DNA from: Raillietiella orientalis
Lineage: Eukaryota
Direction: 5' to 3'
Assembly (NCBI GenBank): GCA_036172245.1
Contig: JAYWIR010000037.1
Location: 1,178,001-1,242,000 of the forward strand
Length of the DNA: 64,000 nucleotides
A program made the position numbers and the translations under genes. How positions within the stretch are numbered: position 1 is the stretch's first letter; the number at the start of each line of letters is the position of its first letter. The notes beneath the pieces are model-generated. The model saw only the letters and a list, made by a program, of their open reading frames with translations. It was not told the origin of the DNA and did no database searches. This document shows, in pieces, positions 1,774 through 56,119 of this stretch.

Positions 1774-1900
1774 CTGTCCCTCTTCTCTGGCAGCTGAAGA
1801 CCCAAGTTAGGGGATAGTCCGTACGGGGTCGTGAGTCCAGGAAGGCTCCAGAGAAAGTAGCTTATTCCTCTTATGCTTGGTAGGGAGATCTGGATGAAAC
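1774..1900 (+). mobile_element. Diverged fragment of the LINE 5' leader (copy F), opposite orientation to copy A
   Basis: GAGTCCAGGAAGGCTCCAGAGAAAGTAGCTTATTCCTCTTATGCTTGG matches the reverse complement of 8760-8815 (GAATCCAGGAAGGCTCCAAAGGAAGAACTCCGTTTCTCTTACTCTTGG). Confidence 0.6.
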
Positions 1901-4900
1901 TCTCGCCGTGGTTTCACCCGAACATGCCAGGGAGCTTATTAAAATTCAAAATAGACTTACAGATAGTGACGGAACACGTGGTCCTACCACACTCACTTTG
2001 TCCATGGACCTTCCGGGCTGCCGGTCCCAGACCGGCGAGGTTCACTTCGTAGCGGAGGGGAACGCAAAAAGAAATATAAAAGTTCATGAAATAAAAACAC
2101 ACACACGAGAAAAAAATGGAGGGCTGATAAGGGGTCACTGTCCGCTGGAGGGCGTCCTCTGCATCCTTTCCAAGTTGCTGGCTAGGTCGGTCTTGATTAC
2201 ACCCAGGTGGGGCCATCTTGCTGCTATCCGTAGAAAGCGATACTCGATGGCATCCCTCTCGTATGGTCCTCTTTGTGTATTGCTCCGCAGATGTAGCAAA
2301 GAGCTGCCAGTGCTGCGGCTGGTTTTCCTTCCCTGCCCAGCAGGAGCCTCAAGATTCGGGTTGCCGACAATTCCTTTCATCTCCTTACCTACTCTTTGTG
2401 ACTCAAACCATGTGCCGGCCAAGAACAGGTTGGCATCCACACTTCTCCCGGGAACAGCATAGGTCTGCTTCGGGCTAATTGCGGATTCCGCCGTCTGTCC
2501 CAATTGCTTCAGTTTCGCCAGCAAGTCGGCGTCCGCGTTCAACACGGTGATCAGACGTCAGCTGCTTTTCCTCAGGTCTGCTCCTTTAGGGAGGAGATAC
2601 GCACCCTTGCTGATCGGAATGGAGAGGAAATACCGTTTGCATTCCGAGTAAGGAAAGTTAACTGATGCATCAGGAGGGTGAGCTCTGCTGCTAAGTACTG
2701 TCAAAACTCTTCAGGCAGGTCGTCCTCCCCTGGTGCTTCGAGTCAAGTAGGACTCCTTCTGACCTCCTGTATAGGAGCGTACGCACAGCCTCCGTGCTTT
2801 CAAGATGCTCCTCGAATCAGTCGGTGTTCTCCAGAACGCAGAGTCGTGGTTGCAACGAGATGTTGCATCCGCGCCATCGTTTCGGACCTCCATGTGCTGG
2901 AGCTTCGAATGCAAGGGGGTCACCCACATGGGAGCTGCCTTGATGAGGACCGTCTCAGGGTGGTCTTACCTCCAGTAAGTTTCCAGAGAGATCAGTGCCA
3001 GCATACAGTGCCAGCTCTAGGAAGAAAGAACTGCTGGAAATCAAAGACTTCTGGCCCTAGTCCCCTTTCCTTTAATTACTTAGTCTCCTCTCTCCCACTC
3101 CAGACTTCCTTAAAAATCAATCTGAGTGCCGATAGTCGTTCCTGCAGAATTCTTTTTTTTTTTTGTTGTTGCTTTTTAGGAACTGAGTTCCCAATGACTT
3201 ATGAGTTTATTTTTTGATAAACGTCCGGCGTCATCGAGTCAAAATGCAAGCTGGGAAGGATGTGCCTGAGGTGTGTTGCAGAACACTTCCGGTTCCAATG
3301 CCGTTTGAAAGGTAATTGTCTATTCAGAGAATCTAGCTCGGGAAATCCTTAGTCCCTCTTTTCTATGAGAGTACTCTCATGGCCAATTGCTTTCACTGCT
3401 CGGCCATAGCTGCACTTTTGGGCTGGCCTGACCTTCGATGAGCATATGCTGAGAAATCACATGGGTGAGCTGCGCATGCTACGATGCAGGGAGACATAGT
3501 CTTCCTTCAAATAGAATCAGTAGCAATAGACAAAGGGAGGGAGGACGAGGACCACGCCCTGAGTTACTGAGAGCCACGGCTAACCACTTTCAGCACCCTG
3601 GGGACCGTATACGAGTTCCTTGTTCTTCCGTTCTTACATGCAGCGATTCAGTTTAACTCCGCTAGAAGGCATGCTGCTCAGGGGCAGTGCCGGTCCAATG
3701 TGCAAAGGATATGCAGCCTGGGAGGAGTTGCTTGAAAACCTGCTTAGCCACTGCACGATCAGCATCGATGCAATCACCGAATGCCATGATGAGCCGGCCG
3801 ACAAGCCCAGAGAAATGAGGAAAGGACACCAGGAGATTCTGACATGCAACAGAAGGGACACCGGATTCCGATCTCGTCTGGCGCTGCAGGGCGAAGAGAG
3901 GACAGTGACATTCGGAGTCATCGTCGCCCCTTTCGAAAGGAGCCCGCGCTGAAGGCCGTGTGCCTTAGGTCTCCGCACTTGACACCAAGCGTTACGAGTT
4001 CGAATCCCCATGTGGAGGATCGACTCCAGAGGAATGCGTGAGTCGTGAGTTTCGAGTCTTCTCCGCAGGATGACGCTGAATGGTCCGTGGACTTTGTGTG
4101 AGGCACTGTGGTGGGAGCCGGAGACCTGATGTCCCTGTCGACCTATCTAGATTGGAAGGCGACTCTCTGGAGTCCTTCCAGAAATCAGGGAGCCGGTAGC
4201 CTTCGAGGCTCCCCGCCATCGCGTACCATGAAGCTGACTGGTACCCTCGGGTGGTTGCCTCTTCATATTGCAAGAAGTGCGCTACTGTCTTCAGGAGCGA
4301 CACTTCAGAGAAAATTTGGAAGCGTCCCTTTGATGTCCTCTTTTGAAGAGGACATCGAAGTCATCGCCGTCCTTGTTTCTTCTTCAGAAGAGGAAGAAAC
4401 GGAAAGGTTCCCTTGAGGGTTCCGTCCGTAGAAGATATGAAGAGTGGTCCCTCAGGAGAGAGTGAGAAAGAGATTCCCTCCCAAGCGTAAAAGCAACGGA
4501 CTTTTTTCCTCCGGAACCTTCTGTTGATCAGCATCAGGATGAGTATGCGGGGTAATGGAAAGATAGAAAGTACTGAATCCAGCCCTACGTTTTGCCCCCA
4601 CGGCAGCGGCCCCATCTCCGTACGCGCTCTGGTGGAAGCATCCCTCGGTACGAAGGGCTCGGAAAACTCCAACTCAAGGAGCTCATAAATCTTAGGGAGG
4701 CGAGCAGGACACTTGAAGAAGGAGATGGTGAACACCACCGTTCAGAGCTTGCGGGGGGTCTGTCGAACACTTCGAACAGACCACTCCCAGTAATCCGGCA
4801 TGCAAGCAGCAGGAACGACCATGGGAAAAAGTAGAAAAAGTATGGAGAATATGGGAGACTCCCACCCTCCCACAGACATTCCGTTTCACTCCTCATCGGG

Positions 4901-6049: not shown

Positions 6050-8885
6050 GTAGCCGATGGCGATTGAGAACATCTGGTTCCTCAGGATGACGGTCCTCCA
6101 TTTTAGCGGTCACCGCTGCCCCTGCTCAGCGAAGGATTTTCAGAGAGGTACCGATGACCCTGATGGAGTAAAGATGCCTTTAAGCAGGTGCTGAGGGATG
6201 TGGAATCGGTGAAGCGCGGGACACTAAGTGCTCCAGCACGGGAGCATCCCTTGGAGAGCTGCCCTCTCGGGGGTGCTGAAGTTCCCTGCCCCGAAGGAAG
6301 ATTCAGTGTACCAGCGAGAAAGCTGACCAATGACTTTTTATTTGAAGGTGCAAAATTGCATGTCGCTCCTTTGTCACGTGCAAGAAGTTAAAGAGTGCCC
6401 GATGACAGTGCCGATTCATTCACCTGGAATGCAACGCGGGAAGGAGACAAGGACGTCTCCGATGAAGGGAAAGACGACCTTCGGTTTCCCTGTCGCCATT
6501 TTTCCTGTTTCTTTCGTTCAACGAGGCAAAAAACGACGAAAGCCCTGTAGCCAGCAGCGTCCAGAACCAAGTCGTGCACACTGCTTCACTGCAATCGTCA
6601 TTTGGTTTCAGGGGACTGCTGTCGCATCCAAGAAGCATATCCCGAGAAGTGCAGAGTGGCTCTTGAATTCGACGAGATCTGCTGGACCTGCTGCTTGTCT
6701 TCGCCGCGTTTCAAAATCTTTAAGCTGCGGAAAGAAAATGGAGAGAGCTTGACCGGGTCAAATTCTCTTGATTTTCAGCCGATGGAAAGAGAAATGAGCA
6801 CTAGGAATCATTTTGAGGAATCGGAGAAGTTCTTATCATAATAAGAGCCCAGCAAAGAGCCAGAGATTGGGACAGACTGGAAGCAACTTTCACTTCTTGT
6901 AAAACAGAGGCGATTGTTGAATCTGCGATTCTGGTTTTTCAAGTTTAAGAACAATGCAATTAGGAGGAGATCTAAGTTTTATCTCAATCTAATCTCCAGC
7001 TTCATCGTGTTTTACAACAGGTTTTCTGATCGGACTTCTGGGCTTTTATCTCCTTTAGGGCTGGTCAAAAGTTTCCATCCAACACAGACGTGTTCAGTCA
7101 AAAACAAATTCACGCCATTCTTTCTTGATTACGTAACGATTAGATCATCTTTTAGGAAGCGGCATTTTGGATTGGTTCTACACGAGATGGCGAGTATCAG
7201 ATTCACACCTCATGCACACCAGCTTTTCAAGACTGCGGCAGTCATTCTCCTGTTGTCATGAGTTATTTTCTCATCTGCAGGAAAAATTTTCCCTTGTACT
7301 GCCATGGCAGATGCGTGTAAGTAGGCGATAGGATCCACGAGACAAAAAGATGACTGCACTCACCGGGGTTTCTGAATTCAGGACTGGAGGATCCACGGCT
7401 GAAGTTCCGCAAAGTAGGAGGAAATGATCTTCAGAAACTTCCATGCGGCTTCCTCTCCCGGTGAAAGAAAAGGAAATCTCCAAAAACCTTCGAAACAGAT
7501 CGCACCACACGTTCAGGGCAAACGTGCGCTGGTCGGAATCGCGAAACCGCCGAAGATCAATCAAAAGCATTTGCTTTCGCTATGATGCGTAGCATTCAGA
7601 TGCAACATGGGGATGCTGTGTCTAGAGAAACGCACGCCTAGTTCCCAGTGCCCATGCAAGTGAACTGACTGCCCCCCTCCTCCCCGCTTCCCTCCATTTT
7701 TATATTGCTCCCCGATCTTTGTACCTTTTATCATTTCATGCCAACATGCATTCAGAAGAGCAGACTCGAGACGACCGTCTGAAAGGAGGCGAAGTCAGTA
7801 GCTAAAATGTTGTACGCCGAATCGATTCCAACTTCCACCTCATACCAGGCACCAGAGTTGCAGTGATGACATTCTCAGAGATATGCAAAGAAGGGAGGTG
7901 ATGATTGAGTCTTTCGAGAGAGAACACTGACTGCATGGATTCGAAGCATCTTTGGAAACGAAACTTTCGAAGCTTCGGATGCTTTCTACTTCCGAACGGA
8001 AGGTCCGTGCTAACTGTAGATCGCAAGAACATCTCCGAGACTCTTCAGACAAACACATCCAACGAAGCAACAGGAATACAAAACGGGGCGAAGGACGCAT
8101 CGCAGACTTTCATTCGAGGATCGGTTCATGGAGGAGGAAGCGCAACACGGGCGGGAGACGTGTCCTTCCACATCTTGACCAGGTCAGCAGTTTCAGATTC
8201 ATAAGAATGAAAAGGAGTTTCCTGTGATTCGGAAGCTGAGCTGAAAGCAAAAACTGCTTGAATTCCAAATCAGAGCTGCAAGAAATGACTCCCTGCACAG
8301 CAAAAAGAAGTGCCCCCACGGCACGGAAAGAGTGCAAAAAGAACTCTAACGGGTTTGGCTGAACAGTCTGTTCCACTAGTCGGTGAACTTAGCCACACGG
8401 CACGCCAATGCGTGACGTGTGTGCCCCTCCAGGAATGAAGTAGCCGGTACCCTTCGCGATTCCCCTCCATCGCGTACCATCTAGCTGGTTGATACCCCCT
8501 TCCCCCCCGGTGGTTGCCTCTCAGAGTGTAAGAAATCGAGCTGTTCTCTTCGGAGCACGCCCTGCAGAGAAAATTCAAAGCGTCCGTTCGCGGTTTCTTC
8601 TAGGGGAGTAAACAAGGAGCGGTTCTCTTGAGGGTTCCCTTCGGAGAAGGAATTCCAAAAGCGTATTCTTTCTGGATTCCCTTCGGAGAAGAAATGAGAA
8701 GGAGCCCCCTTCAGGGGTACTTCTCTCGGGAAAATGAGGATGAGGATACCTTCGGGATTCTCTCCCAAGAGTAAGAGAAACGGAGTTCTTCCTTTGGAGC
8801 CTTCCTGGATTCATAGGGTGGTTCCCCCGGGTCACCCCCTATCTTGAAGAGTTGGAACAACGCACCCTCGGGTGGAGTGGGACAG
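6050..8885 (-). mobile_element. Decayed L1/Tx1-like non-LTR retrotransposon (copy B) with complete structured 5' leader (about 8420-8885)
   Basis: Leader homologous to 51440-52102 and 55575-56119. ORF 7271-7570 reads LIDLRRFRDSDQRTFA...SEDH...RGSYRL (APE endonuclease C-terminal motifs). GQLSKGCS near 6250 resembles the RT motif GxRQGCPLS. Confidence 0.6.
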
Positions 8886-9519
8886 AGGACACTTCCATGG
8901 TTGGAACACTCATGCTACTGTTTGTGTCCAGGAACAGAAGTTGAGTATTGTCTATTCTATTATCATTGCTCACAGCTTCTTCAAAACATGCTAATAAACT
9001 ATCATCTTGAGGTTGCCTGCTATTTTGCTCTTTTTCTCCATCTAGCTTTCCATCACCATCCCAATCAATTTTAAACCTGATTACTCTGGGTGCTGTGGCC
9101 AAAATATTGCGGGTCATCTTATCATAAATAGGAGTTGGAGGTGGATTCTCTCTCATCTCCTGGTCCAAATATTCATTATTTACATAATAACCAACACGGA
9201 TAAATTCTTGCCCTTTGTATGAACAAGTCAATAGCACTACTGTTACTCCCACAGCATCTTGCAATGGAATCTTGCTAGTATCAGGAGGATCAGCTTGAAA
9301 CACAAACATGTGCCTCCCCTCTGGAACTGGACCAACATATACAGTATCTAAGATCTGGTCATACTCTTCACTTTCTGCTGACCCAACATAAATTATCTTC
9401 CACTCCAAGTCTTCCGCTAGATCTTCTATACACTCAGATGTTATTTCGAATTGAAAAGGATTATTAAAGGGTGATGGATTGTCCAATACAATTACATTTG
9501 AAATATGCACTTTAGCCAT
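8839..9519 (-). CDS. ASF1: Histone H3-H4 chaperone ASF1, intronless, 226 aa; probable retrocopy whose last ~15 codons and stop come from LINE sequence
   Basis: Unmistakable ASF1 N-terminal domain (MAKV..NVIVLDNPSPF.NPFQFEIT.ECIEDL.EDLEWKIIYVGSAESEEYDQILD...GVTVVLLTCSY.GQEFIRVGYYVNNEY...PRV.RF.IDWD). Open frame; D54, V94 and R108 retained. Functional status uncertain. Confidence 0.95.
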   Translation of the reverse strand: MAKVHISNVIVLDNPSPFNNPFQFEITSECIEDLAEDLEWKIIYVGSAESEEYDQILDTVYVGPVPEGRHMFVFQADPPDTSKIPLQDAVGVTVVLLTCSYKGQEFIRVGYYVNNEYLDQEMRENPPPTPIYDKMTRNILATAPRVIRFKIDWDGDGKLDGEKEQNSRQPQDDSLLACFEEAVSNDNRIDNTQLLFLDTNSSMSVPTMEVSSVPLHPRVRCSNSSR

Positions 9520-9539
9520 ATGTTTCTATACCCGTTTCG

Positions 9540-41520: not shown

Positions 41521-41749
41521 GCCATTGCTATAAAACTGCCCTGACCGATATCAAATTTCTCATTTAACGACATTTCCTGGCACGTTTAGTCTTTCATGTG
41601 TATCATAACCCAGTTTCATTTTTGTGTCATAACCGAAGTGCTCAAGATCCCAATCAGAGCGCTCAAGATCCCAACCAAAATCTGGCACCTGCATTCTTAG
41701 AATATACAGGCAATAATGAGACGTGTGCAAATGGCTAATTTATCCTTAA

Positions 41750-42450
41750 AATTTGCTGTGGTTTCCCATTATAAAGTCAGTGTCAATTATAAAGGTGAGG
41801 AGTGACCTGCTGCTCAGCAAAAAGGAAGAAACTCTTTGGCAGTGGTCAATGAGAGAGCTGACGGACGCTGAGACCCCGAGTGTTCCACCTAAAGCACTGC
41901 TACATGAGACCCATCTTTCGAAGATTCCTCCAGAAGATTTGATGCTGCCTGCTACACCTGCGAACAGCTCCATTCTCCCTTTTAAGTCGTCAAAAGTCGG
42001 CGCTGCTGGTCATGCATTGGAGCTTTTCCCATGTGAAGCAAGCCTTCATCACTGGACCCAAGGGCGTGTGAACCCGAACTGTGCCAGGTGTGGGGAAGGA
42101 GAAACTCTTCTGCACCTGCTTGTGGACTGTGTTGCCCTTCGGCATCTTTGGGACCGTTTTTCGACCAGTTCCCTAACAACAACCTGAGAGATGTTGTCAG
42201 GCACTCTTCAATCACAAGCCACCATACTCGTGATTAGCAACTTTTTGCTTACTGAGCAGGGTAGTGGGGGTGTGCAACGCCAGCAGAAGTTTCTCTCATT
42301 GGACGGAGGTGCCATCCAATAAGAGAAAAACTTATAAGGATTGCCGCGATATGTCCCCATCTGAAAAGCACTAAAAACAAACTTGGCAGCATCATCCAGA
42401 GGATGAACGTAAAGCAACCACTGTGATCCCATCCAGAACACTCCAAATAA
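41750..42450 (+). mobile_element. LINE 3' fragment with zf-RVT domain
   Basis: ORF 41753-42187 has CARCGEGETLLHLLVDCVALRHLW, a canonical CxxC...ETxxHL..C...W finger. Confidence 0.75.
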
Positions 42451-42589: not shown

Positions 42590-43410
42590 GTGCCCGGGTA
42601 AGAGACCTGTCCGTTCGACGCTGGAGGTTTGGGGGTACCATCGCTCTCGACCGGAACGGATTCTGCCCCGGAGGCGTTCAGGCACAATCCAGAGGATGGT
42701 GGCTCGCTGTTCGACTAAGAACGAGCGCCAGATGTCCGGATCTGCGATTCATCTCGTACACCAAACAGGAATTTCCATCTCAATAACCGCTCATCATCAG
42801 GTTGAGGCGAATCCGCCTCGCGACAGTCCAAACCCAGCTCACATTCCCCGCTGGAGGGTGAAGGATCCAACGCTTGGAGGATTCCGCTTCACGATGTTGG
42901 GAAGAGCCGACGTCGAATGATCAAAAAGCGGCATCGCTATGAACTATGGACCTCCACAAGCGTTCCCCGTGGTATATTTCCTGGCATCTCTTGCTCAGAA
43001 CTCCTGATCTGCGTGCACGGTCAAAGGGATCGCAAAGCCTAGCTTTCGCACTCGTACTGAAAATGTGGATCAGGCTGGTCAGGCTGGTCTTTTGCCCTTC
43101 AGCTACGCGCACGGGGTTTCTGTCATCTCTGAACCGACCGCCTTAGGGCACCCGTGTTAGCTTGTGAGGGGTGTTCCTCGCCAGTCAAACTTCCCGACTG
43201 ACACTGTCCTCTGAGCGGATCGCACTTCGCCCACACCTAGAGGCGGTGGCGCATGTTCGCACACCGAGAAAAGCGCGCCGCAATCCAGACGATCGAACAA
43301 GTTGGGTGCCCCCAAGCATGAGCTCTCTTAGAGATCAGCAGCACGGCCCGCTCTCAGCCTCGTCGAGTCAGCAAAGAAATGATGAAACCTCTGTTTCGTC
43401 TTTCAGCGAG
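42590..43410 (-). pseudogene. Diverged 28S rRNA fragment covering domain V (peptidyl-transferase region) through the sarcin-ricin loop
   Basis: Collinear reverse-complement matches to conserved LSU blocks: GAGGCGTTCAG (about 42671), TCTCGTAC (42752), AACCCAGCTCAC (42831), ATCCAACGCTTGG, GGAAGAGCCGAC.TCGAA.GATCAAAAAGC (42900), CGTACTGAAAAT, TTTTGCCCTTC, CCTTAGG.CACC, CCAGTCAAACT (43181). Indels in invariant blocks indicate a non-functional copy. Confidence 0.92.
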
Positions 43411-43559: not shown

Positions 43560-46550
43560 ATATAAGCATAACCAAACTTCACGTAAGTGGACAGGACTCC
43601 TTGCTGCTGTAAGGGAGTGTCCAGGCGCCCTTCAGTACGACTGTCACCCACTGACGGCGGGGTGTTTCCTCTCCAAACAAAGGGAGGCATCCTACCAGAC
43701 TTCCGAGTTCATAAAGGGTCAGTGAACCACCGACTCGCATATCGGCCACACAAAAGTACAGGGCAAGCAGGATTGAAGGGGAAGGAACAATAAAGAAACC
43801 CACAAATAAGAGAGATGAAGGCACAGAGGTCAAAGGTCTTCAGTAACGTCTTCAGTAAGCTGCGGGCGATGCAGGCGGAGTCCTCCATGACTCCTACATC
43901 CTTCAAAGGACATTTTGCAGCGTGTCTCATGATTGAACGATTGCATGTGGTTCCTCTTCTTTGTGGGTGCGCCTCCTTCTTTGTGCGTGTATTGTGAAGC
44001 CATGAACTCCCTCGTTCAGAGCGGGATCGACGACCAGGGAAGCAGACGGAAGGTCTGTCTCCCATTAGTGGTGCAGCACCAGCTCCATTGATGTCCTTTT
44101 GGGCGAAGCGGGCGCACAGGAGCAAGGCGTTGCGAAGCTCACGGAAGCGTCCTGCAACCCTGCAACCTGCTTGCAAACAGAAGACACACGCGCGATCGTT
44201 TCCGCTTCCCTGCACCTTGAGACGTGTGACGATGTCTGCACTGTCTGCACAAGGAGTAAAGCCCGCGCGACGCGAACCTGAGGAGGAGCCGTTCCATCAA
44301 AACAAGTGATGCAGATTTGCGAGACTCAAATGTTCAAATGTTTCTCCCATCGAAGCAGTCCTTCCGCGCGGAGAACTGATTACCAAGAAACAAGGAAGTA
44401 TCAAAAGAATCCAAGAGAGGCAAGCAGAGGTGACAAGGGAAAACATCACTGGTAGCAACATCCAACGTTCCCGGAACTGGAGCTACAAGGCGTGTTCCCG
44501 AATGCTAACAACTTTCAAACAGGAAAGCGATGAAAAAGCGATCTCCCACATTGCTGGCTGGCGACTGTCAACCCTTCTTTCTCCTGTAGGGAGGTCAGCA
44601 ATGTGGCTCGGGGGACAGCATCGGCTTTTTTCCACTTCTTTTGGTCCCTTCCCACTTCCTCCAGCGAGCCAGTTCCCAGGTAACGGATGGAACGTGTCGA
44701 GTCTGCTTCAATGAGAGTTAAGCGGTCCAGGTGCACACTGTCGCTGATCCGTTGTACTTTGCAGGTCGGCAGTAGATCTACTGATGCAATTCCCACATGG
44801 CAGCGATCTGACTCAGTGGGAACGCGAGCTCCTTCATGTGGTCTCGGCAGCGAGGTGGCAGCGACGCCATTCCATCGCACAACATGCCGTGCTCAGGCAC
44901 CGGAGCTACAACCGCATCTCGACCATCAAGGTCATCGTTATTCTGAAGTAAAGCCATGACACCATCTTATTCACAGCGAGGAGTTCTGAGTCTGGGGTAA
45001 CGAGAACTTTGAGGCGAACGACCACTATTGCGGTGCTTTCTGCACGAGAGCGTCTTCATCATGGCCTACCTCGAATGGCGGGAACGAAGTCAGAGAAATG
45101 GGCCAGAGGGCCAGAGAAAGTTCGAAATAAAGGATTCCAGCATGAAAAAACTGCCATCCTTCAACGATGCTAGTTCCATTTCTGCCGATGGAGGCAACCG
45201 GACCGAGTATCCGCGCTAAAGAAGTCGCCTGAGTATCTTGCCAAGGGATTTTACCGGGCTGCCCACGGGGCTCCCCAATCCAATCCAATCCAGCTACTCT
45301 GTGCACGTTGCACTGAGAGGAGCACCTTCCACTTCGTCCTATTGACGCTCGCAACCGCCTTCCGGGAAAGAATTCCTTCGGAGCGCTGCTGCGGTGGACG
45401 TGGACAGCGAGAGGAGGAGGCCACCGGCACACGCCGCCACGGCTGGCAGTGCAGAGGTGGGAAGTTGGCAGAGTCTCTCGAGATTTCCCGCCAATTCGAA
45501 GAAGATGCTGAACATGATGGAACTCGAGCTATGCGCTTGATCCCCCCCGCACTGGCAAGCCGCGCAAGTAGCCAGCCAGCGACCACTGAAGGAAACGTTC
45601 ATCAGCGCATCGCTAGCTCAGGTGCAGCGCCAAGGTTTGAGGCTTCTAATCTTCCCGGAAGCTTCAGAAGGAGTCCCTCGTTCTTGCCATGGAACGCCCA
45701 CTGGGCGGTGGCTGCGACCGCCGGGGTTTACAGCGTTCGAGGCACTCCAGTAGGCAGCTGCTGCTCCGTGAAGTCACGCTAACCGTCTTTCTCACCTCTT
45801 CTGGAGCAAGCGAAGCATCTCCTCCGATGACTTCCCACCCCTCTCCGAATTCCTGGGAAGGCAGGAGGTACGAGAGACACCGAGCGTAAACCTGCCGGAG
45901 CGATTGCTTAAAGTGGACCCGTCCCTATTCGAGGACTTTGGTAGGTGCAAAGCCACCGAGGAAAAAGAAAGACAGGGAATTGTCTCTCTGCTCCCGTCCG
46001 GGTGGCAGGGTCAATCCCGAGGCAGCCTCCGCTCATTCGTCGGGGTCCCATCCCGGGCGGAAGTAGATCCAGCTCTATCCTGGAGTGGTCAGACAGGGTC
46101 GATCTCGCTCTGCCTTTCCGGCCCGCCCGTGAATCCAAGTGGTCATCGACGAAGGCGCGGTCGACCGAGTCCCAAGTGCCGGGCAGTGGATCTCGTGCAC
46201 CGGCACGCGTAACTCGCGGTTGCCAGCAACGGCCTTTCCCCCAGCATAGCAGTTGATGGCAGGAGCACCTGCCATCGGATGCCCTACGTTGGGACCTCCG
46301 AGCACACCGAGAAGACAACTTTTTCCATGCGCACGTTGTGGTCCCATAGCGCGTAGGCGTTCCGCCATACATAATCGACCTCTGGTCGGGCCACTTGAGG
46401 GCAACATGTCAGGCATTTTCTCAACAGACGGGCCCCATGCGTCGCCTCTGTGGAAACCACGTGCTCGGAAAGCATGCTCGAGGAACCACGCCTCCCAGTG
46501 CGGCTTACTCTTCTCACGCCTCCTTTTTTCCAAAGTCTCGCAAGTTTCCC
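43560..46550 (-). mobile_element. Decayed L1/Tx1-like ORF2 (copy G): endonuclease, RT and CCHC remnants plus 3' UTR
   Basis: In order on the minus strand: AINCYA (cf. INVYAP), SVDRAFV...LSDHSRIELDL (APE SDH motif, about 46090), GGLLLSL (about 45420), SIRYLG (about 44685), RCREAETIARV..C (about 44200). Confidence 0.7.
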
Positions 46551-47699: not shown

Positions 47700-50600
47700 T
47701 GTAACGAAACCAACGGACAGTCCCTCTAGTCCCTGGAACAGGCTTGAACCATAACAAGGGCCATGTCGCACACTCGGCTAATTCATGTCAGAGGGACCAC
47801 CATAGCTGGTCCTCCTTGACTGGAAAAAGTCTTCTGTCACCGATGCTGGTTAAGTATTGTGGAGTATTTGAGCAAGTCCTGCATCCTTGCAGATGGGCTC
47901 AACTACTCGCCCATGCACTCTACATCGTGTGGCTTTCCGGTTTTCTCCTTTTCGCGCTTAAGTTGCAAAGTCCTTCTACGAGAAAGCGCGCAACCGAAGC
48001 AAGCTCCAAGATGGCCTACCTTATGTCGTAGGGTTTGTAGGTGCCCTTGAAACACGTAGGCACTGGTTTCTGCCTGAGCAGCAGGCGTCACCGTTGCCAT
48101 CAATTGGCTCCAAGTCCTCCCGTTTTCCGAATGAGATTCTTCGGAAGCTGCTACCCATCTCCATGGGAAGGGGTGATGAAGTTTCGATTGCGGCCTCCTC
48201 CTCCGTTAGTGGTGATTGTTGGAATTTCCACCTTTGCGACACCGCAATCCCTGGTGCCATGAAAACAGGAAAAACTGACCAGAGTGTACTTCCTTCAAGC
48301 AGGGTGGGAAAAACGTTCGCACGTCCGTTTGGAGAGAGCCAACAGGGAGGAGTCGAAGGTCGTTCCTGTCAGTGCAGCAGCATGAATAGGGCAGCTAGGA
48401 GGTGTCCTGCCTCATTGCAGCACGAAAGAGATATCTAGGTTCGTGGACGACTCGGCGACTGACGGACGTTGCGACTCCTAGCGACCCCTAGTGTGCCACC
48501 CAAAGGACTTCGCCAGGACGAGCTGCTGGGGATTCCTCGGGAATTCCAGATGTGGCCTCCACTGTTTCAAGACAACCGCGACCTCTCTCTCGAGTGGCAA
48601 AAATTGGCGCTGCTATTGCTGCATTGGAGGATTCCATGCAAAGCTCTCCACTGCCACTGGACTCTGGGAAGTGTTAGTTCAGAGTGCAGCAGGTAAATCC
48701 CCAGGACACCCTCCCTCACCTGCTCCTTGACTATGAGGCTCTCCGGCCCCTGCGGCAGCATTTTGCAACTGTCTCCAGATCCCCCGGAGCAATTCCAGAG
48801 ACGTTGTCAAGCGCCTCTCCGTGCGTGAACTGCCACGAGCCGCGTACAACTGCCACAACCGCCACGGCAACTGTATGCTGCAAACGAGGGGTAGTGGCGG
48901 CATGGGACGCCACGAAAAGAGGCCACCACAACAAAGGTGCCATTCATTGGTCTATTTTTGAAGATCGCCAGTGGAGGACCCCATCTAAGAAATGACATAC
49001 GTCAGCTTGCATCCTCCATTCTCCAGAATCCAGAAGATGAACGGAACGTCGCAGGATACACAGTGATCCCTTCCTAATGCCCCTTCCTCCCCACTAAACA
49101 AGTTTACAACTTTTTTATTTATTTTTGCTTTGTTTTTCCTCATCCCTCGTGTCCCCGCATCAGACCCCAAGAAGCAAGCTGGAAGAAACTTCATTTTTGT
49201 ACGCGGTAGAACCAAGTCTCCTACCAAAATATGAGTTTATTATTTTCGTAATAAATCCCCCAGCAAATCCGGGTGGGGAAAATCCCCTTTTTCTCTGTGT
49301 GCGCTTCTCTCTCGACAAGCTGCTTGCTAGTAGTGCAACCTCCAGGATTTCGAGGAATGTTGAATTCCCATGGTCGCTGGAAGCTGCAGCTATGGGCTGT
49401 AGAACAGATTGACGTCCATGCACCTCCTGGGAACAGCGTACGCCTGCTCGGGGCCAATGATGGATTCCTCTGCCCGTGCCAACCTCTCAGCCCATAGCTG
49501 GACTAGCAGCCTAGCATACGGGTTTACCGCGGTAATCGGACGCCATTTGCCAATGTTGCGGAGGTCTTCCTTGTGAAGAGCTGAAACAAAACGAGCACTT
49601 CGTCCGCTTAGAGAATCAGCGTAGCTGACAGATGTATCAAGGAAGTGAGCTCTGCCCGCAGAGCCCTGATAGAACTCCACAAGCAGCGTCCCCCTCAGCT
49701 TTCCGATGGCTCTGGTGACTTCGCCGATCGTGAAAGGTGCACTGAAGCTTCGCCATCACTTTTTCCTTTGCGCTGAAACGCTCTAGGGCAACAGGCGTTT
49801 CGAGAAATTGCTCTCCAGAGGTGCCCTCGCATAAGGGAAAGAGCAAATAGCCCAAATGATGCTCCTTACCTAGGGTGGTCCCCATTACGAGCTCTAGTGT
49901 AGGGTTTCAGGAAACAGAAATTTCGTAGGGAAAAATTTACGTTGCGAGCTCAGAGCAGTTACAGAGCATGTGACACTTCAATTACGCTCGTTGCACCCTC
50001 CCTCCTGCCACTTCAAAGAAAGGGAGTCCTCTGGAAGCTGAAGCTCCTCGTGTGGGATTCCTAGATGCTCTGCGCGGTGAAGCAATCCTCTTGCTGTGTC
50101 AGTTGAAATTGCAGCATCCCTCAGTGGATAAATGGGCCATCCCCAAGAGGTTTCACTATTCCTGCAATGCTGCAGGTAATGTGCCATCTTGCCGGTGCTC
50201 CGCTGCCCAAGGTTTTCCTCAAGGAGAAGAACTCTGAGGAAGGAGGGGGTTCTATATTTGTTAACTTGTTTTTCATTTGTTTGCTTCCTCCTCTCTGTAG
50301 CCGAGGCGGACCTCGCCAGTCGGTGTACTGGCACCTCGATATGATCCAAGTGCTTTTGGCCGTGGAATGGTTTGGTATCCTACCACTGCTTGTTGCATGT
50401 TTATTCTAAACAAAAACCTACCGGAGCAACCGGGTGACAACACACACAGGAGCAACTTCGCATAGTAACGGAAAAGTTTTTCACTCGGTAACGTGAAAGC
50501 ATTCATTTGAAGAATGAACTTTCAAGTTGGGAACCCTGTTCCCAGATGACAATAAAAAGTTCACCTTCACGGAGGCTGCATTCTAAAAAAGTCCGGAATG

Positions 50601-52102
50601 AAAATAAAAACGGAAGGTAGAGAGGGTAGGGACTTTGAGAGGAAGGGTCTTTGGCATGAGATGCGCCATTATTCCTAGAACTGCTGCTGAATGATGGCGA
50701 TTTCCCTGGAGACTTCTTGCTCCAGGTGACGCCGTCTCTCATTCGGCTGGCTTCATCCGGGTGAAGCCAGACTAATGAAAACGGTTGCCATGCGAGTCAC
50801 CACCCATCGCTGCACCGGCAATTCGAACACATGGTGGTCTGTGATGACGACGCGGATACAAGGTCACGTTGCAATCACGCCTCCTGACGAAAGTCTGCCG
50901 CACGCGTAGAATCTTCGCAGATAGTCCATGGAGGTGTCCCCAAGGTTCAGGAATGCTCAAGGCAGACTCCTCCACAGTGCAGCCATGGGGGGGAGGAATG
51001 ACTCAATCGACCCGCACCTTAAACAGTTTTAGAGACGTATTTCCCCCGGAAACCAGGTGCCTGCACCGGGTACTCTAGTGAAGAATTATCGGTAGATCCT
51101 GTTTCCAACGCAATGGGAACACCGAGGTGTTGGTACACGGATTGACCTCGACTTCTTCGGGTGGCACACTAAACAGCTCGCTCTACCGAAGCAGTCTTCC
51201 CGGGGACGAGGAATAGAGGCATTCACTAACTCCCTCGTAGAGGAACGAAACAGTCGCCATGACCCACGTCGGAGGCTTTGTGGTTGAGGCTTCCGAGCGT
51301 GGCACCATGCGTCGCGGGATCGAATACTCCGGCAGAAACTGACGCAACTGCGTCGTTGGGTTCCGAGTTTCTCCTGCAATGGCGCTGGTTGGCCGAGACA
51401 TTCGGGCGTGGCACCGATGGTCCTTTAAGCCGGAGGCCCCTGATGAAGGCCGGAACAATGGGAGTTGACCTTCAGGTCCTTCCAGGAATCCAAGGAGTGG
51501 GGAGTTCCCCCTCCGGTCTTGTACAACGGAGAGCAAACCCCCACACCGGGGAACCCCTCCGGTTTCAACATGGAGCAAGGAGCCCTCACGGGCACCTCTC
51601 CTAGTTGTTCGATGGAGCGGACCCCCCCTGTTGCGGGGGGGGACCCTCCGAGTCGTCGCTTCTTCACAGAGTGCAAGGAAGCAAGCGAGAGTGACTCCCT
51701 GTGGGAAGCTGCAGCGCCCCTTTTGAGATTTGGCAGCGTCCCTTCGGGGTTCTCTTCAGAGGAGTGAACAGGAGCAGTTCCCTTGCAGGTTTCCTCCGAA
51801 GAAATTCCTACTAGCGGAATCCTTTCCGGATTCCATTCGGGGAAGTTGAAATGGAGAGGACAGCCCCTCCCCATTGCGGGGGGTGTCCCTCCGGAGAGAA
51901 TAAGGAAGGAGATTCCTCTTTGGAGAAAACCAGTGTGGAGATGATCCCCATTTCCGGGGATCTCTCCCCAGGCGTGAGAGGAACGGACTCCTTCCTGGAC
52001 GAAGGCGTGAGAGGACGGAGTCCTTCCTGGATTCATAGGGAGGACCCCTCCCGGGGTACCCCCTATCTTGAAGACTACCCACCCTCGGGTGGCGTGGAAC
52101 CG
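47700..52102 (-). mobile_element. Decayed L1/Tx1-like element (copy C) with complete structured 5' leader (about 51440-52102)
   Basis: LQEK (cf. LQET, about 51375), ELVNASIP (cf. LVNVYAP), ITDH (about 50840), RT segment VEFYQ...EDLRNIGKWRPITAVN.YARLL..LWAERL..IIGPEQAYAVPRR...NLF (49390-49680), AETSAYVF (zf remnant, about 48060). Confidence 0.8.
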
Positions 52103-52140
52103 TGTCGAAGAACTGTGAAGACAAAAAAGAATTTCCATCT

Positions 52141-52800
52141 GTCCGAAGAGACCCTTAGAGGGGTCCGCTCCGATTTTTCTTCTCTGAAGGGAACCCGGAA
52201 GGGATCCGATCGTGTTTTTACTCATCTGAAGAGAACCCAGAAGGTGACGCTTCCGAAATTCAGAAGGACGCAGCTTCCCCGAAGGGATCGGCTCACGTCT
52301 CTGAACTCCCTGGAGAGGTGGTGGCGACACAGCTACTCTATCAGTCCGACGCGGAAGGGTACTCCCCGGAATGGGGGTCTGCTCCTTCACAACCGGAGGG
52401 GAGCTCCCACTCCGTGATTCCTGGAAGTACCCGGAGGTCGACTCCCATTTGTCATGGCCCTTATCAGGTGGCATCCGATTTCAACCGCTAGCAGTGCCGC
52501 ACCCGGATGAATATCGACCAACCAGCGTCATCTTGTGGGGTGAACTCGGGACCCACGACGCACTGCGTCTATTCCTTCGCAGTATTCGAACCCACGACGC
52601 ATGATGCCACGCGCGGAGACCACCGTAACCACACGGCCTCCGACGCGGGCTGTCGCTTCTGAAACATCCTCTCATCTACGTTGCTCGGTTTCGCCAAGGA
52701 AGTCTCCGGTTGCACTTTCCAGTTCGAGATAGGCAGGAGTCCCACTAGCTGGTTGCTCAGTTTGGGAACTTCTGATTTCCGTTCAGCCATGGTCGGCTAG
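52141..52800 (+). mobile_element. Partial leader plus endonuclease start of the same LINE family (copy D), head-to-head with copy C
   Basis: 52500-52660 is a diverged reverse complement of 51240-51420; 52141-52470 carries the same hairpin modules as 51440-51900. Confidence 0.8.
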
Positions 52801-55574
52801 AACCACAAGAGGAAGCCGTGTCCGGAAAGCAGAAAATTTCCACTTTGACACTCCGCAGTTATTAACAAAAATAATTAGAAGCCTGCACGCTGAGAACATC
52901 CATATTTTGATAGGATGAGTGCACAGATGTTCGTGAAAACATCTTGAGGGCATTTTAATCGAACATATAAACGTACAATATAAACAATGCAGTTTCTTTC
53001 CTGACCACAGATTAAATGTATTTATTAAGTTGTAATCAAGATGTATATGTATTTTGTTTCATTATATTTCTTTCAATCATACCTTCCTGTATGCTTCATT
53101 TGCAACTTTGTCTTTACCGTTTATTTCCTCTTGCATTGAAATTGATAAAAAAATGTGAACACAGCTCTGAACAGAGCCATTCTGGATTAAAGGTTTACAG
53201 AGGATTCTGGATAAAAAATTATCATCGGCTATTCCCTAACCACTTCCAGGAGTAAAAGTTATAAACGAAGTTTTCTGTCTTCATGGAACTTTGAAAGATG
53301 AAAACGCTCTGGAAAGAAAGCTCAGCATCCGTGGCCTGTCGAAAATTCAATGCCATATGGACAGCGAATTGGCAATGAGTTTTGGAATTTTGATTTTTCA
53401 TAGCGGAAGGACTTTTGGGTAACTCGGAACCACTCCTGCGAGGGATTGTTTCGTTTATCTTAGCACTGTACTTGTTTCTTGCTTTCAGTACGAAACGAAG
53501 TAGACTTTTACCAGTTTCATACAAAATGGTAGTGTCCACTGCACCTGAATTCTGTTTTCAGAAAGTCATGGAACGCTCCACGCGTCAAGAAATGCAGAAA
53601 TAGAGTAAAGCGATAATTCCAAGAGACTACTCCTTCAGCACTTTCTGAATGGCGTCGTGGAAGGTGCTTACAAAAGTCCTAAATCCAGAATTAGCAGTTT
53701 GGACTTGGAGGAAGAAGGAAAGAAAGGCGATTTCTTCTGAAGGCTCATTCTGTTGCTTCAGCGAAGCCAGTTTCCCGAAGGCTGGATTTTCGAGACAAGA
53801 AGTACCTGTCAGCATTCCTGTCAAAATTGATGTGGACAAATACGAAACGGCATGCGATAATTAGCGACAATAACAGTACGGATGGCTCTCGCGCAAGGCA
53901 AAATGAGTGCGTCGCCATGACGAGTGATGGTTGAATTCCGAAATTTCACGGAGGAACCCTGGTGGTCCAAGTAGCGTGTTTTCTCGGCATTGAAGAAATG
54001 AAAATCCAGCGCTAAAGTGATTTCCCCTGCACTAATTGTGCAATTTGCATGCTGCTCATGGATGGGCAGATTCTCTAGTAGTCCAAATCAGCAGATAACA
54101 AAGCAATAGCATTTTGTACGCTGAAGAGATTAAAGAGGTTCTATTGGACATGAGCAACGTAGATTGCCCTTGTGTCGTGATCGTGCTCAAGTAACTGCTA
54201 CTAAGAAATGAAAAGCAGGGACTATTAAAACGGGAAATCCCTCTCTCCTGGAACATTGCAGAAGGATTTCAGGATAGCAAAGAAAAGGCAAGGCAATCTA
54301 CAGAGAAAACAGCAGAAAATCTATAAAACACCAGAACACAGTCCAAATGAATTGAGCCGATGCTGGTGTTCCAATTCTACTGCGATGTCCTTAGGTGGAT
54401 TCCGTGATTAGAAGTTATAAATAGTATCACTATGAGCACGCTGAGTTTCCATCACAACTCAAAGTGTGCCCAGGTTCTTCATTGTATCCCAAGGAAACAG
54501 ACGAGAAGTCTTCTCTAAATCTCTCACCTACGGAAACCGTCTGATTAAATGAAGTCAATTTTCGATTCATCCAGATAAAACGAATTTTTAGATTGGCGAG
54601 CCAGAAAGAAAGAAGAAAAAGAGAGACAAGCACAACCATTGGAGCAAATCAAGAACAAACTCATCCTGAGTGCTCTGAATTTTCCGCTGGCCTGAGAACT
54701 TACTTTGGGGAAATTTCCCTGGACCTACTTACGTTTTTAGGTCTGTGATCAGGAATCTTGTTCAAATGAAAGAAGCGGGCCCTGATAAAATGAAAAACCG
54801 CTTTCCGAATAATCAAGATCCCTAAATGACTCATCAATTTCAGGTATCATGAACTTTTCAGAGAAATCCACATCAGTACAGTTACTTCCATTTAATAAAA
54901 TGTTTCGAATACAAAGCAATCAGCTGGGAAGGATGTCTGAGACAAATGACAGCTGCATGGAAGCGCAATCACTGAAGATGATTAGTTTTCAAGAGTCCAA
55001 AAAAAGACACAAACGAGCGCGAACAGTAGGGATTGCAAAACTGCTTGTGAACAGGAAAGAAATGCTGCCAGCCGAAGCGGTAAAACAAGAAGTAAAAGTT
55101 TTCCTGTTTTCTCCAGGATGCCAAGGACGGATGCCTTGAGGGGTGGATGAAAGAACTGTTCTTCCCAATGATCCCCGAAGCGTACTCAGTGAGCAAAGTT
55201 GCTCGCGTTGGTGGCCGTGTGGCTACTGCCTCCGCGCGTGGCGCTCAAGAGCCGACAAGAATCGACGCCTGAAAAATGGGGGTGCGTCCTGGGCTTCGTG
55301 TCCCTCATTCGCAAGATGACGATGGTTGGCTTATATTCGGATGCAGCACTGGTTGACACCCGGACACGCCAGGGTGTTTATTGATAAAATAAATATACAC
55401 GTCTGTGGTAGAACGTTTGATCCTGTCACTTTACCTCTTAATACGAAGAGGAACCTGACGGGAACTGGAACGCAGTCCAGAGGGGCTCGCTTCGGCAGTA
55501 TAGCGGAAGGGGGACAAACAAAAAGAAAAAAATAGGTAAACCAAAAATATACGGTCGAAAAAATAGAGGGATGG

Positions 55575-56119
55575 GGGGTTGCGGCACTGGTGGAAGTCGG
55601 AAGCTGGAGGCCCCTGTTGAGTGGCCGGGATTGGAAGTTGACCCTATAGAGTCCTTGCAGGAATCAGGGAGCCGGTTCCCTTCGGGATTCCCCTCCGGTT
55701 GTGCAAATGGAGTCGTCACCCTTGAGAGGGTGACCCTCCATCGCGTGCCATGAATCTGGTGGGTTGATACCTCTCCGGAGTGTGAAGAAGTGAGCTGTTC
55801 CCTTCGGGAAAGCGCCCTTCAGTGAAATCTGGAAGCGTTCTTTCAGGGTCCACTTCAGAGAAGGGAACAAGAGGCGATTCCCTTACGGATTCGCTCCGGA
55901 AAAAGATGCTGCAAAAGCGGATCCTTTCCGGATTCCCTTCGGAGGAGCAATGAGGAGCGGTCCTTTCAGAGTCCCCCTCTAGAGAAAATAAGGAAGTGGT
56001 TCTCTCCGAAGCGTAAGAGGAACGGACTCCTTTCTCCGAAGTCTTCCTAAATTCTAAAGAAAACAACTCTCGGGGTACTCCCTAGCATCACCACCTCATC
56101 ATTGGGTGGTGTGGAACAG
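55575..56119 (-). mobile_element. Isolated complete 5' leader of the same LINE family (copy E)
   Basis: Collinear similarity to 8420-8885 and 51410-52102, ending at the same terminal motif (plus strand GGGTGGTGTGGAACAG). Confidence 0.8.

What the first reader, a model, noticed from the sequence alone, without database searches (positions are those of the whole stretch)
51440..52102. Apparently ORF1-less L1/Tx1-like retrotransposon with a modular multi-hairpin RNA leader
Seen: six copies (1774, 4100, 8420, 51440, 52141, 55575) of a 450-700 nt GC-rich region. Three end at the same terminal motif (sense C(T/G)GT(T/C)CCAC.CCACCC), and in copies A, C and D (probably also B) the other end runs directly into APE-endonuclease motifs, leaving no room for ORF1. 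The leader is a tandem array of roughly 5-8 modules of about 40 nt with consensus CYGRAG-R-stem-purine-rich loop (GAAA, GCAA, GAAG, GCGA)-stem-GCTYC, for example CCGAAGGGAATCC-GGAAA-GGATCCGCTTT and CGGAGGGTCCCCCCCC-GCAACA-GGGGGGGTCCGCTCC. Inner stems change sequence and length between modules and copies but largely keep pairing. One hairpin covaries: ATAGGG/CCCTAT with a GGGA loop (52035-52066) versus CTAGGG/CTTTAG with a GAGA loop (56054-56085). TCCAGGAA and TTCCTGGA bracket the array in copy B (8428, 8802) and copy C (51481, 52024) and could close it in a long-range helix. Established: L1/Tx1 elements normally encode an ORF1 RNA chaperone. Inference: a structured RNA acting as a multivalent protein-binding scaffold, an IRES or a processing element in place of ORF1. 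I do not recognise it as a described motif.
Basis: partly seen in the sequence, partly recalled or inferred. Interest (0 to 1): 0.82.

Follow-up and report, generated by a model that had tools for sequence, protein, structure and literature searches.

The report
Hairpin-rich GC repeat beside LINE relics
The flagged stretch is one copy of a high-copy, non-coding, GC-rich repeat that is rich in short hairpins and is probably the front end of an old LINE-type jumping gene, but nothing here shows the hairpins are a selected RNA device replacing a missing protein.

Summary
The repeat is real. The window holds five substantial copies and one fragment, 60-80% alike. Three share one terminal motif (3 hits against 0.01 expected). 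Copy C (51440-52102) folds far better than shuffles (z about -5.3 to -5.6). Copies E and F do so moderately, D and B not at all.

Both strands fold equally well. Substitutions between copies keep pairs no more often than independent change predicts: 309 of 453 against 307 expected, with 11 compensatory pairs against 13. The best hairpins of C lie in C-only insertions. A DNA run of the same species shows other copies skipping or replacing 55-212 nt blocks. The region is therefore a hypervariable, non-coding array of quasi-palindromic modules.

The claimed APE endonuclease motifs were not detected by Pfam, a family HMM, hhalign or the ESM Atlas. L1-like reverse-transcriptase relics do lie 1.2-1.4 kb downstream on the same strand in 2 of the 4 copies that keep that end. 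However, homology among all four copies stops at one point (about 51263), and so does the high-copy signal in the DNA run.

Best reading: the 5' region of an old L1/Tx1-like LINE or a short derivative, acting as a modular promoter or UTR. A selected RNA scaffold or IRES is not supported. Interest is modest.

The parts
51263..52102 (-). Copy C of the repeat (the flagged copy). It comprises the hairpin-rich module array 52102->~51520, a transition holding possible start codons, and the conserved ~220-nt 'block' 51480->51263.
52103..52130 (.). A 28-nt A-rich spacer between the facing ends of C and D. Its first ~20 nt resemble the flank of copy F.
52131..52651 (+). Copy D, inverted relative to C. 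It lacks the first ~250 nt of the array and ends at the same homologous point as C.
8420..8885 (-). Copy B. It has the terminal motif and array but is cut before the block. Its 5' end lies inside the tail of the ASF1 reading frame.
55206..56119 (-). Copy F, with terminal motif, array and block. It is interrupted by a ~230-nt AT-rich insertion at 55346-55575.
3925..4532 (-). Copy E. It lacks the first ~110 nt and has array and block.
1782..1906 (+). Fragment A, a ~125-nt piece of the array (profile positions 71-159).
49396..49878 (-). L1-like RT N-terminal relic downstream of C on the same strand (37% identity over 174 aa to P0122, with stops).
2381..2739 (-). L1-like RT N-terminal relic downstream of E on the same strand (56-64% identity to P0122).
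45240..45677 (-). Weak RT-core relic (P0122 residues 249-394, E=5e-4). It may or may not belong with the relic at 49396-49878.

Best explanation
The flagged stretch is one copy of a dispersed, high-copy, non-coding GC-rich repeat of about 0.6-0.9 kb. Its body is a variable-length array of short quasi-palindromic modules. It most likely represents the 5' end (5' UTR plus the first codons) of an old L1/Tx1-like LINE family that has no room for a conventional ORF1, or a short non-autonomous derivative that kept only that end.

Inferred mode of action in the live element: a modular internal promoter / 5' UTR whose module number changes by gain and loss, much as mouse L1 monomer arrays do. On this reading the hairpins come from dyad-symmetric DNA modules and from how such modules arise. 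They are not shown to be a selected RNA fold.

Shown: the copies, termini, hairpin excess, non-coding nature, hypervariability and multicopy status. Inferred: the link to the LINE and the promoter/UTR role.
For: Copies and termini.

Hairpin excess: present in C, E and F but absent from six control segments.

Non-coding: 61 of 278 indels between copies are multiples of three. Mismatches by codon phase in the leader are 144/152/126. No Pfam family is found in any ORF of the region.

Hypervariable modules: 53 of the 213 pairs of C's fold (helices 5, 16, 17, 18) lie in columns where only C has letters. In DNA run X1, contigs skip or replace 55-212 nt inside the array. X1 is the same species, since two of its contigs show 0 differences.

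Multicopy: 119 X1 contigs lie on 49300-52800 at 80% likeness or more (classes 5/11/40/63). Summed depth is 17-37 over 51289-52692.

LINE link: L1-like RT relics sit on the same strand 1.2-1.4 kb beyond the block in C and E. P0122's best solved relative is human LINE-1 ORF2p, and longer relatives carry APE+RT+zf-RVT. In E, a short ..LETH-like peptide at 4053 lies 438 codons upstream of the RT anchor. The relative P0125 has about 405 codons between its LQECH and the same anchor. D and E are shortened on the side that would be the LINE's 5' end.

Analogy: mouse L1 promoters are tandem monomers of variable number (abstracts of PMC6454616 and PMC9022269, seen in the search listing). Single-ORF APE-type LINEs are known (PMC3894237, abstract and passages).
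Against: No APE domain was detected between the array and the RT relics. The methods were Pfam, an HMM of 23 relatives (the last with Z=1), hhalign (probability 0.2) and the ESM Atlas.

Homology among C, D, E and F ends at one point. In the next 500 nt, 6 of 6 pairs score at chance (z -0.7 to +0.8).

X1's high-copy signal also stops there. Depth is 2.45 in bin 51172-51288, 0 over 50119-51171, and 0 from 52693. Three loose ends behind 52651 agree at 0.57, which is what random flanks would give. A LINE should leave more 3' than 5' sequence, so the abundant unit may be a separate short element.

Near C there are LINE relic pieces in both orientations, which weakens the association argument.

Modules are barely alignable to one another, unlike true monomer arrays.

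No target-site duplication or tail was found. Promoter activity is untested, and a spot check of one transcription-factor-like palindrome showed no clear enrichment (5 hits against 2.05 expected).
Confidence: 0.5

Rival explanations
1. One reading: the array is a selected multi-hairpin RNA leader of an ORF1-less L1/Tx1-like LINE. It would act in cis as a protein-binding scaffold, IRES or processing element in place of ORF1.
For: Copy C folds strongly (z about -5.3 to -5.6). One long-range helix (TCCAGGAA/TTCCTGGA) is kept in 4 copies, with a both-sided change in E. The tool's shuffle control is marginal for both-sided changes (24 cells against 18.1; 23 of 500 shuffles reach it). A 400-580-nt, highly structured 5' UTR with several upstream ATGs (read) would hinder ribosome scanning, so some special initiation is conceivable (inference).
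Against: With C excluded, 309 of 453 pairs stay canonical in the other copies, against 307.3 +/- 5.4 under independent substitution (p=0.41). Compensatory pairs number 11 against 13.0 (p=0.78). The covariation score is 0.111 against 0.102, reached by 66 of 500 shuffles. The RNAalifold covariation term is a penalty (+4.56). Both strands fold equally well (-315.9 and -310.5 kcal/mol; sums over five copies -865.1 and -862.7). The best hairpins are C-only insertions, and other genomic copies delete or replace modules. No Rfam family, ribozyme or IRES model matches, even at E<=10. No RNA run was available.
Confidence: 0.12
2. The unit is an independent short non-autonomous element unrelated to the neighbouring LINE relics. 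Options are a SINE-like retroposon read on the opposite strand with a tRNA-like head, a solo LTR, or a foldback-type element whose inverted arms are built of subrepeats (the C/D pair).
For: There is a sharp common terminus in 4 of 4 copies, and it also bounds the high-copy signal in X1 with random-like flanks. A second common terminus is seen in 3 copies. On the opposite strand the conserved block starts about 10-30 nt before an A-box-like and a B-box-like motif at tRNA-like spacing (read). C and D form an inverted pair with conserved outer ends and variable inner arrays, and 2 X1 contigs carry opposite-strand joints. C and F could be read as starting TG and ending CA.
Against: tRNA is not supported. 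ARAGORN finds nothing at default settings, and relaxed settings are at noise level (43 and 235 hits in the window). The Rfam tRNA model does not match even at E<=10. B-box-like sites number 11 against 10.25 expected and A-box-like sites 215 against 210.7. No target-site duplications were found for C, F or the C/D pair. Only one of the copies forms an inverted pair. D and E are shortened on the side that would be a SINE's 3' end. RT relics follow C and E on the same strand at similar distance.
Confidence: 0.28
3. The array is protein-coding: an unusual ORF1 or an N-terminal extension of the LINE ORF. In C, a 351-codon stop-free frame (51425-52480, minus strand) runs through it.
For: The long open frame in C is in phase with the peptide that precedes the block. 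C and D keep the same frame for about 40 codons upstream of the block.
Against: The open frame also runs through the antisense of D, and five of six frames there are stop-poor, which is a composition effect. Only 61 of 278 indels are multiples of three. There is no third-position excess (144/152/126), although the RT positive control is also weak (33/29/40). There is no Pfam family and no 2A-type NPGP motif. Other genomic copies skip 55, 58, 89, 109, 116, 121, 202 or 212 nt.
Confidence: 0.04

Closest known systems
L1/Tx1-superfamily non-LTR retrotransposons (LINEs)
   Same: The RT relics next to copies C and E match P0122, whose best solved relative is human LINE-1 ORF2p. Longer relatives have APE + RVT_1 + zf-RVT. 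The copies are GC-rich and truncated at the 5' side.
   Different: No APE was detected and no ORF1 is present. Continuity between the repeat and the RT relics is not shown, and the abundant unit ends about 85 codons into the putative ORF. [quoted passage not shown]
Single-ORF APE-type LINEs (Ingi/L1Tc, Vingi and others; some with an N-terminal 2A peptide)
   Same: The architecture has no ORF1 (PMC3894237, abstract and passages).
   Different: No NPGP-type 2A motif occurs in any frame of the copies. It is recalled, not tested, that these elements belong to clades other than L1/Tx1.
Mouse L1 5' UTR monomer arrays
   Same: A 5' region built of repeated units whose number varies between copies and which carries the internal promoter (abstracts of PMC6454616 and PMC9022269, search listing only). 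Here module content also varies between copies.
   Different: It is recalled that mouse monomers are about 200 bp and clearly alignable. Here the modules are about 35-45 nt, palindromic and barely alignable to each other. Promoter activity is untested.
Structured or ribozyme 5' leaders of R2 and L1Tc (HDV-like ribozymes); viral and cellular IRESs
   Same: The general idea of a functional RNA structure at a LINE's 5' end (recalled).
   Different: No Rfam family matches at gathering score in the window except a 28S fragment elsewhere. Only 8 weak sub-threshold hits appear at E<=10 over 51150-52750, and none is a ribozyme, IRES or tRNA.
tRNA-derived SINEs
   Same: On the opposite strand the conserved block has box-A-like and box-B-like motifs at tRNA-like spacing close to a sharp terminus (read).
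   Different: The motif counts are at chance level. No tRNA model matches. A length of about 0.87 kb is unusual for a SINE (recalled).

Membership tests
L1/Tx1-like LINE (the repeat as its 5' end) | Reverse transcriptase of L1 type in the same element | tested here: inconclusive
   RT relics lie at 49396-49878(-) and 2381-2739(-) on the same strand 1.2-1.4 kb beyond copies C and E. Homology between copies is lost in between, and relic pieces of both orientations lie near C.
L1/Tx1-like LINE (the repeat as its 5' end) | APE-type endonuclease N-terminal to the RT | tested here: not met
   No Exo_endo_phos was found by Pfam in 300 stop-to-stop ORFs, nor in 10 pieces at E<=10. The family HMM gave no hit even with Z=1. 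hhalign gave probability 0.2. Only a short ..LETH-like peptide at a plausible distance was seen.
L1/Tx1-like LINE (the repeat as its 5' end) | ORF1 upstream of the APE-RT ORF | tested here: not met
   Three copies share a 5' terminus. Only about 400-580 nt lie between it and a conserved ATG. There is no Pfam family and no frame conservation.
L1/Tx1-like LINE (the repeat as its 5' end) | 3' tail and target-site duplications; more 3' than 5' sequence in the genome | tested here: inconclusive
   No 3' end could be assigned and no TSD was found. In run X1 the region beyond the block is not high-copy, which is the opposite of expectation.
Selected structured RNA (leader, IRES, ribozyme) | Base pairs kept through compensatory change; match to a curated family | tested here: not met
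   Searches show no excess, with 5 decayed copies and low power. RNAalifold covariation term +4.56. No Rfam family matches.
Selected structured RNA (leader, IRES, ribozyme) | Strand-specific folding (G-U pairs on the RNA strand) | tested here: not met
   MFE is -315.9 against -310.5 kcal/mol. G-U counts and energies are alike on both strands in all 5 copies.
tRNA-derived SINE | tRNA-related head with Pol III A and B boxes | tested here: not met
   Searches give no tRNA above noise. Box-like motifs are at chance frequency.
Solo LTR | TG...CA termini, 4-6 bp target-site duplication, adjacent primer-binding site or polypurine tract in some copies | tested here: inconclusive
   TG/CA can be read in some copies only. 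There is no TSD and no gag-pol domain in the window.
Foldback-type element | Long inverted arms made of subrepeats with conserved outer ends | tested here: inconclusive
   The C/D pair fits, and 2 X1 contigs have opposite-strand joints. The other four copies are not paired, and there is no TSD.
Monomer-type LINE promoter array | Variable number of repeated units in the 5' UTR with promoter activity | tested here: inconclusive
   Variable module content is met. Unit-to-unit homology is weak. Promoter activity is not testable here.

The most novel reading that the evidence does not exclude
An arthropod L1/Tx1-like LINE lineage that has dispensed with ORF1 and relies on a modular, expandable array of GC-rich hairpins in its 5' leader RNA. 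The array would serve as a cis-acting multivalent scaffold for RNP assembly or cap-independent initiation. The abundant short units would then be non-autonomous riders that keep just this leader.
Probability: 0.08. Interest if true: 0.75.

Novelty: new member of a known kind. Interest (0 to 1): 0.3.

Why it matters
If the repeat is simply the variable 5' region of an old LINE family or a short derivative, it is ordinary. It would be useful mainly for repeat annotation of a poorly sampled arthropod genome. The closest RT relative in the protein collections searched is a single metagenomic protein.

It would matter more if young copies showed that a single-ORF L1-like element uses a selected, expandable hairpin array in place of an RNA-binding ORF1 protein. 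That would bear on how LINE RNPs assemble without a chaperone. The present data do not point that way.

Tried and rejected
- No whole genome is held for this window, so genomic copies could not be collected.
- Earlier findings of the scan returned nothing by place or by sequence.
- A metagenome pattern scan with a conserved block motif gave 6 loci. All were 64-74% GC with only chance-level profile hits (E 0.065-0.1), so they are not relatives.
- Sequencing runs: one DNA run (X1, share 0.15) and no RNA holder were listed. Expression and transcribed strand are therefore untested.
- X1 shows no cover over 50119-51171 and from 52693. This is a low-coverage run of short contigs, so absence there is weak evidence.
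- tRNA/SINE head idea: relaxed ARAGORN is at noise level and box motifs are at chance frequency.
- A 2A-peptide idea prompted by ..EENPEG.. in one frame: no NPGP motif was found.
- A STAT/ETS-like site idea: TTCCNGGAA gives 5 hits against 2.05 expected, with 7 of 100 shuffles reaching 5. The consensus sequences are recalled. This was not pursued.
- Codon-phase test: the RT positive control is itself weak, so this test says little.
- TSD search found only 5-6-nt chance-level matches.
- The ESM Atlas on the 170-aa frame of copy E gave no usable hit.
- My by-eye reading of an APE C-terminal-like peptide at about 50700-50790(-) was dropped. The homologous segment in copy E lies on the opposite strand relative to its RT relic.

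Full report
CONTEXT. The window looks like arthropod nuclear DNA. An intronless ASF1 histone-chaperone frame (8839-9525, minus strand) is 80-84% identical to crustacean, tick and fly ASF1 over the domain. Sec1-family exons lie at 30615-32850. No whole genome is held.

WHAT IS THERE. Self-blastn, blastn with copy C and an nhmmer profile define five substantial copies of one repeat and a small fragment. Local pairwise identity is 71-81%.

Three copies (B, C, F) carry the same terminal motif, 3 hits against 0.01 expected. C and F stay alike for about 20-25 nt further out. D and E are shortened on that side, and B is cut on the other side.

The alignments show two parts. One is a poorly alignable array with many indels. 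The other is a better conserved ~220-nt 'block' at the far end.

HAIRPINS.
- Copy C folds much better than dinucleotide shuffles on both strands: z=-5.25 and -5.34, MFE -315.9 and -310.5 kcal/mol.
- With pairing span limited to 70 nt and 60 shuffles, C gives z=-5.6, E -3.7, F -2.9, D -0.5 and B +1.2. Six control segments give -0.1 to -1.15.
- Hairpin excess is therefore a property of the family, clearest in C and absent in two copies.
- It is not a tandem repeat in the usual sense. TRF reports only one 32-nt x1.9 duplication, and C has only one other internal direct repeat.

IS THE STRUCTURE SELECTED AS RNA? Four tests say there is no evidence for it.
1. Both strands fold equally well in every copy. 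The sums over five copies are -865.1 and -862.7 kcal/mol, and G-U counts are alike. A selected RNA usually folds worse on its complement.
2. I projected C's local fold (217 pairs) onto the other four copies. 309 of 453 aligned pairs are canonical, against 307.3 +/- 5.4 when each copy's substitutions are dealt out independently (p=0.41). Both-sided changes that keep a pair number 11 against 13.0 +/- 3.2 (p=0.78).
3. The tool's count on alignment A1 includes C, from which the structure was derived. It gives 74.2% paired against 71.7% (0 of 500 shuffles), 24 both-sided cells against 18.1 (23 of 500) and a covariation score of 0.111 against 0.102 (66 of 500). By the tool's own caveats this is marginal at best. 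RNAalifold's covariation term is a penalty, +4.56.
4. The most striking hairpins of C (helices 5, 16, 17 and 18; 53 of 213 pairs), including the flagship C-run/G-run hairpin at 51614-51649, lie in columns where only C has letters.

No Rfam family matches the region, even at E<=10. These tests are underpowered, because five decayed copies mostly record neutral decay.

IS IT CODING? A 351-codon stop-free frame (51425-52480, minus strand) spans C, but it also runs through the antisense of D, and most frames there are stop-poor. Between copies, only 61 of 278 indels are multiples of three. Mismatches by codon phase in the leader are 144/152/126, though the RT control is itself weak (33/29/40). No Pfam family is found and no 2A-type motif. 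The region is non-coding.

THE LINE QUESTION. Pfam on 300 stop-to-stop ORFs across the window found no Exo_endo_phos and no RVT_1 above threshold. Reading the minus strand below C showed an RT N-terminal-like frame at 49390-49755.
- A full search of 1.84 billion representative proteins gave 4 hits. The best local match is P0122, 45% identity.
- P0122 maps to 49878->49396 (37% over 174 aa) and to 2739->2381 (56-64%), both on the minus strand. These sites lie 1.2-1.4 kb beyond the block of C and of E, in the same orientation.
- P0122's best solved relative is human LINE-1 ORF2p, E about 1e-39. Its longer relatives (26-30% identity) carry APE + RVT_1 + zf-RVT.
- P0122 is a singleton with no closer relatives.
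- In E, a short ..LETH-like peptide at 4053 lies 438 codons upstream of the RT anchor. That is similar to about 405 in relative P0125.
- An ACGCGATGG site is conserved in E, B and F, about 400 nt from the shared terminus. The equivalent position in C is about 580 nt from it.

AGAINST THAT OUTLINE.
- No method detects an APE domain between the array and the RT relics: Pfam at E<=10 on ten pieces, an HMM of 23 relatives (and 83 with Z=1), hhalign (probability 0.2) and the ESM Atlas.
- Homology among C, D, E and F ends at one point. In the following 500 nt all 6 pairs score at chance.
- The DNA run X1 is from the same species, since two contigs show 0 differences. It lays 119 contigs at 80% likeness or more, in classes 5/11/40/63. 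Summed depth is 17-37 over 51289-52692 only, 2.45 in the next bin and 0 beyond on both sides. Three loose ends behind 52651 agree at 0.57, the value expected for random flanks.
- The abundant unit is thus array + block and does not include a LINE body.
- Near C there are relic pieces in both orientations. E 3026->2841 matches C 50669->50883 inverted, which weakens the association argument.

I cannot reconcile these points fully. The abundant unit may be a short derivative that kept only the LINE's front end, or it may be an unrelated element.

OTHER CLASSES CONSIDERED. On the opposite strand the block begins near box-A-like and box-B-like motifs. These occur at chance frequency (11 against 10.25, and 215 against 210.7), and no tRNA model matches. 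No target-site duplications were found for C, F or the C/D pair. The C/D inverted pair with variable inner arrays resembles a foldback element, and 2 X1 contigs have opposite-strand joints, but the other copies are unpaired.

MODULARITY. X1 contigs skip or replace 55-212 nt inside the array at many different places (tables 5 and 5c). Within the window, whole hairpins are present or absent between copies. This matches a 5' region that changes by gain and loss of modules, as described for mouse L1 monomer promoters (abstracts of PMC6454616 and PMC9022269, search listing only).

Single-ORF APE-type LINEs are already known (PMC3894237, abstract and passages). [quoted passage not shown] I read no supplements of these papers.

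VERDICT. The most likely account (about 0.5) is a hypervariable, dyad-symmetric modular 5' UTR / promoter region of an old L1/Tx1-like LINE or its short derivative. An independent short element is the main rival (about 0.28). This is a new member of a known kind and of modest interest.

Noticed in passing
8839-9525 (-): Intact intronless ASF1 histone-chaperone frame (Pfam ASF1_hist_chap, E=5e-73). Its last ~15 codons run into the 5' end of repeat copy B on the same strand (the repeat reaches 8885, the stop is at 8839). This could be a retrocopy joined to the repeat, or an insertion that replaced the gene's own C-terminal end.
   Followed up: partly
42637-43342 (-): Diverged fragment of eukaryotic 28S rRNA (Rfam LSU model positions 2412-3161; 163 and 41 bits). 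It lies outside any rDNA unit, next to a LINE C-terminal relic.
   Followed up: no
41750-42187 (+) and 48411-48776 (+): Two relics of a LINE C-terminal region (weak zf-RVT, E=0.004), 31% identical to each other over 130 aa. They lie on the strand opposite to the RT relics near copy C.
   Followed up: partly
30615-32850 (-): Exons of a Sec1-family gene (Pfam Sec1, E=5.5e-13 and 2e-7).
   Followed up: no
34865-35087 and 41528-41772: Inverted repeat, 75% identical over 248 nt, with arms about 6.5 kb apart. It is another repeat family.
   Followed up: no
55346-55575 (inside copy F): A ~230-nt AT-rich insertion flanked by an imperfect 14-nt direct repeat (at about 55342 and 55580). It looks like a later insertion of another small element.
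   Followed up: no
51425-52480 (-): A 351-codon stop-free frame spanning copy C and the antisense of copy D. It is an effect of GC-rich, stop-poor composition and has no Pfam family.
   Followed up: yes
P0124 (database protein, not in the window): A distant APE+RT relative starts with a 2A-like ..DIEENPGP.. peptide. This fits the published link between single-ORF LINEs and 2A sequences (PMC3894237).
   Followed up: no
50669-50988 (+) versus 3495-2841 (-): A segment between the repeat and the RT relic is shared by the C and E regions, but in opposite orientation relative to the RT relics (66-69% identity over 62-112 nt). It is an inversion or a second relic.
   Followed up: partly
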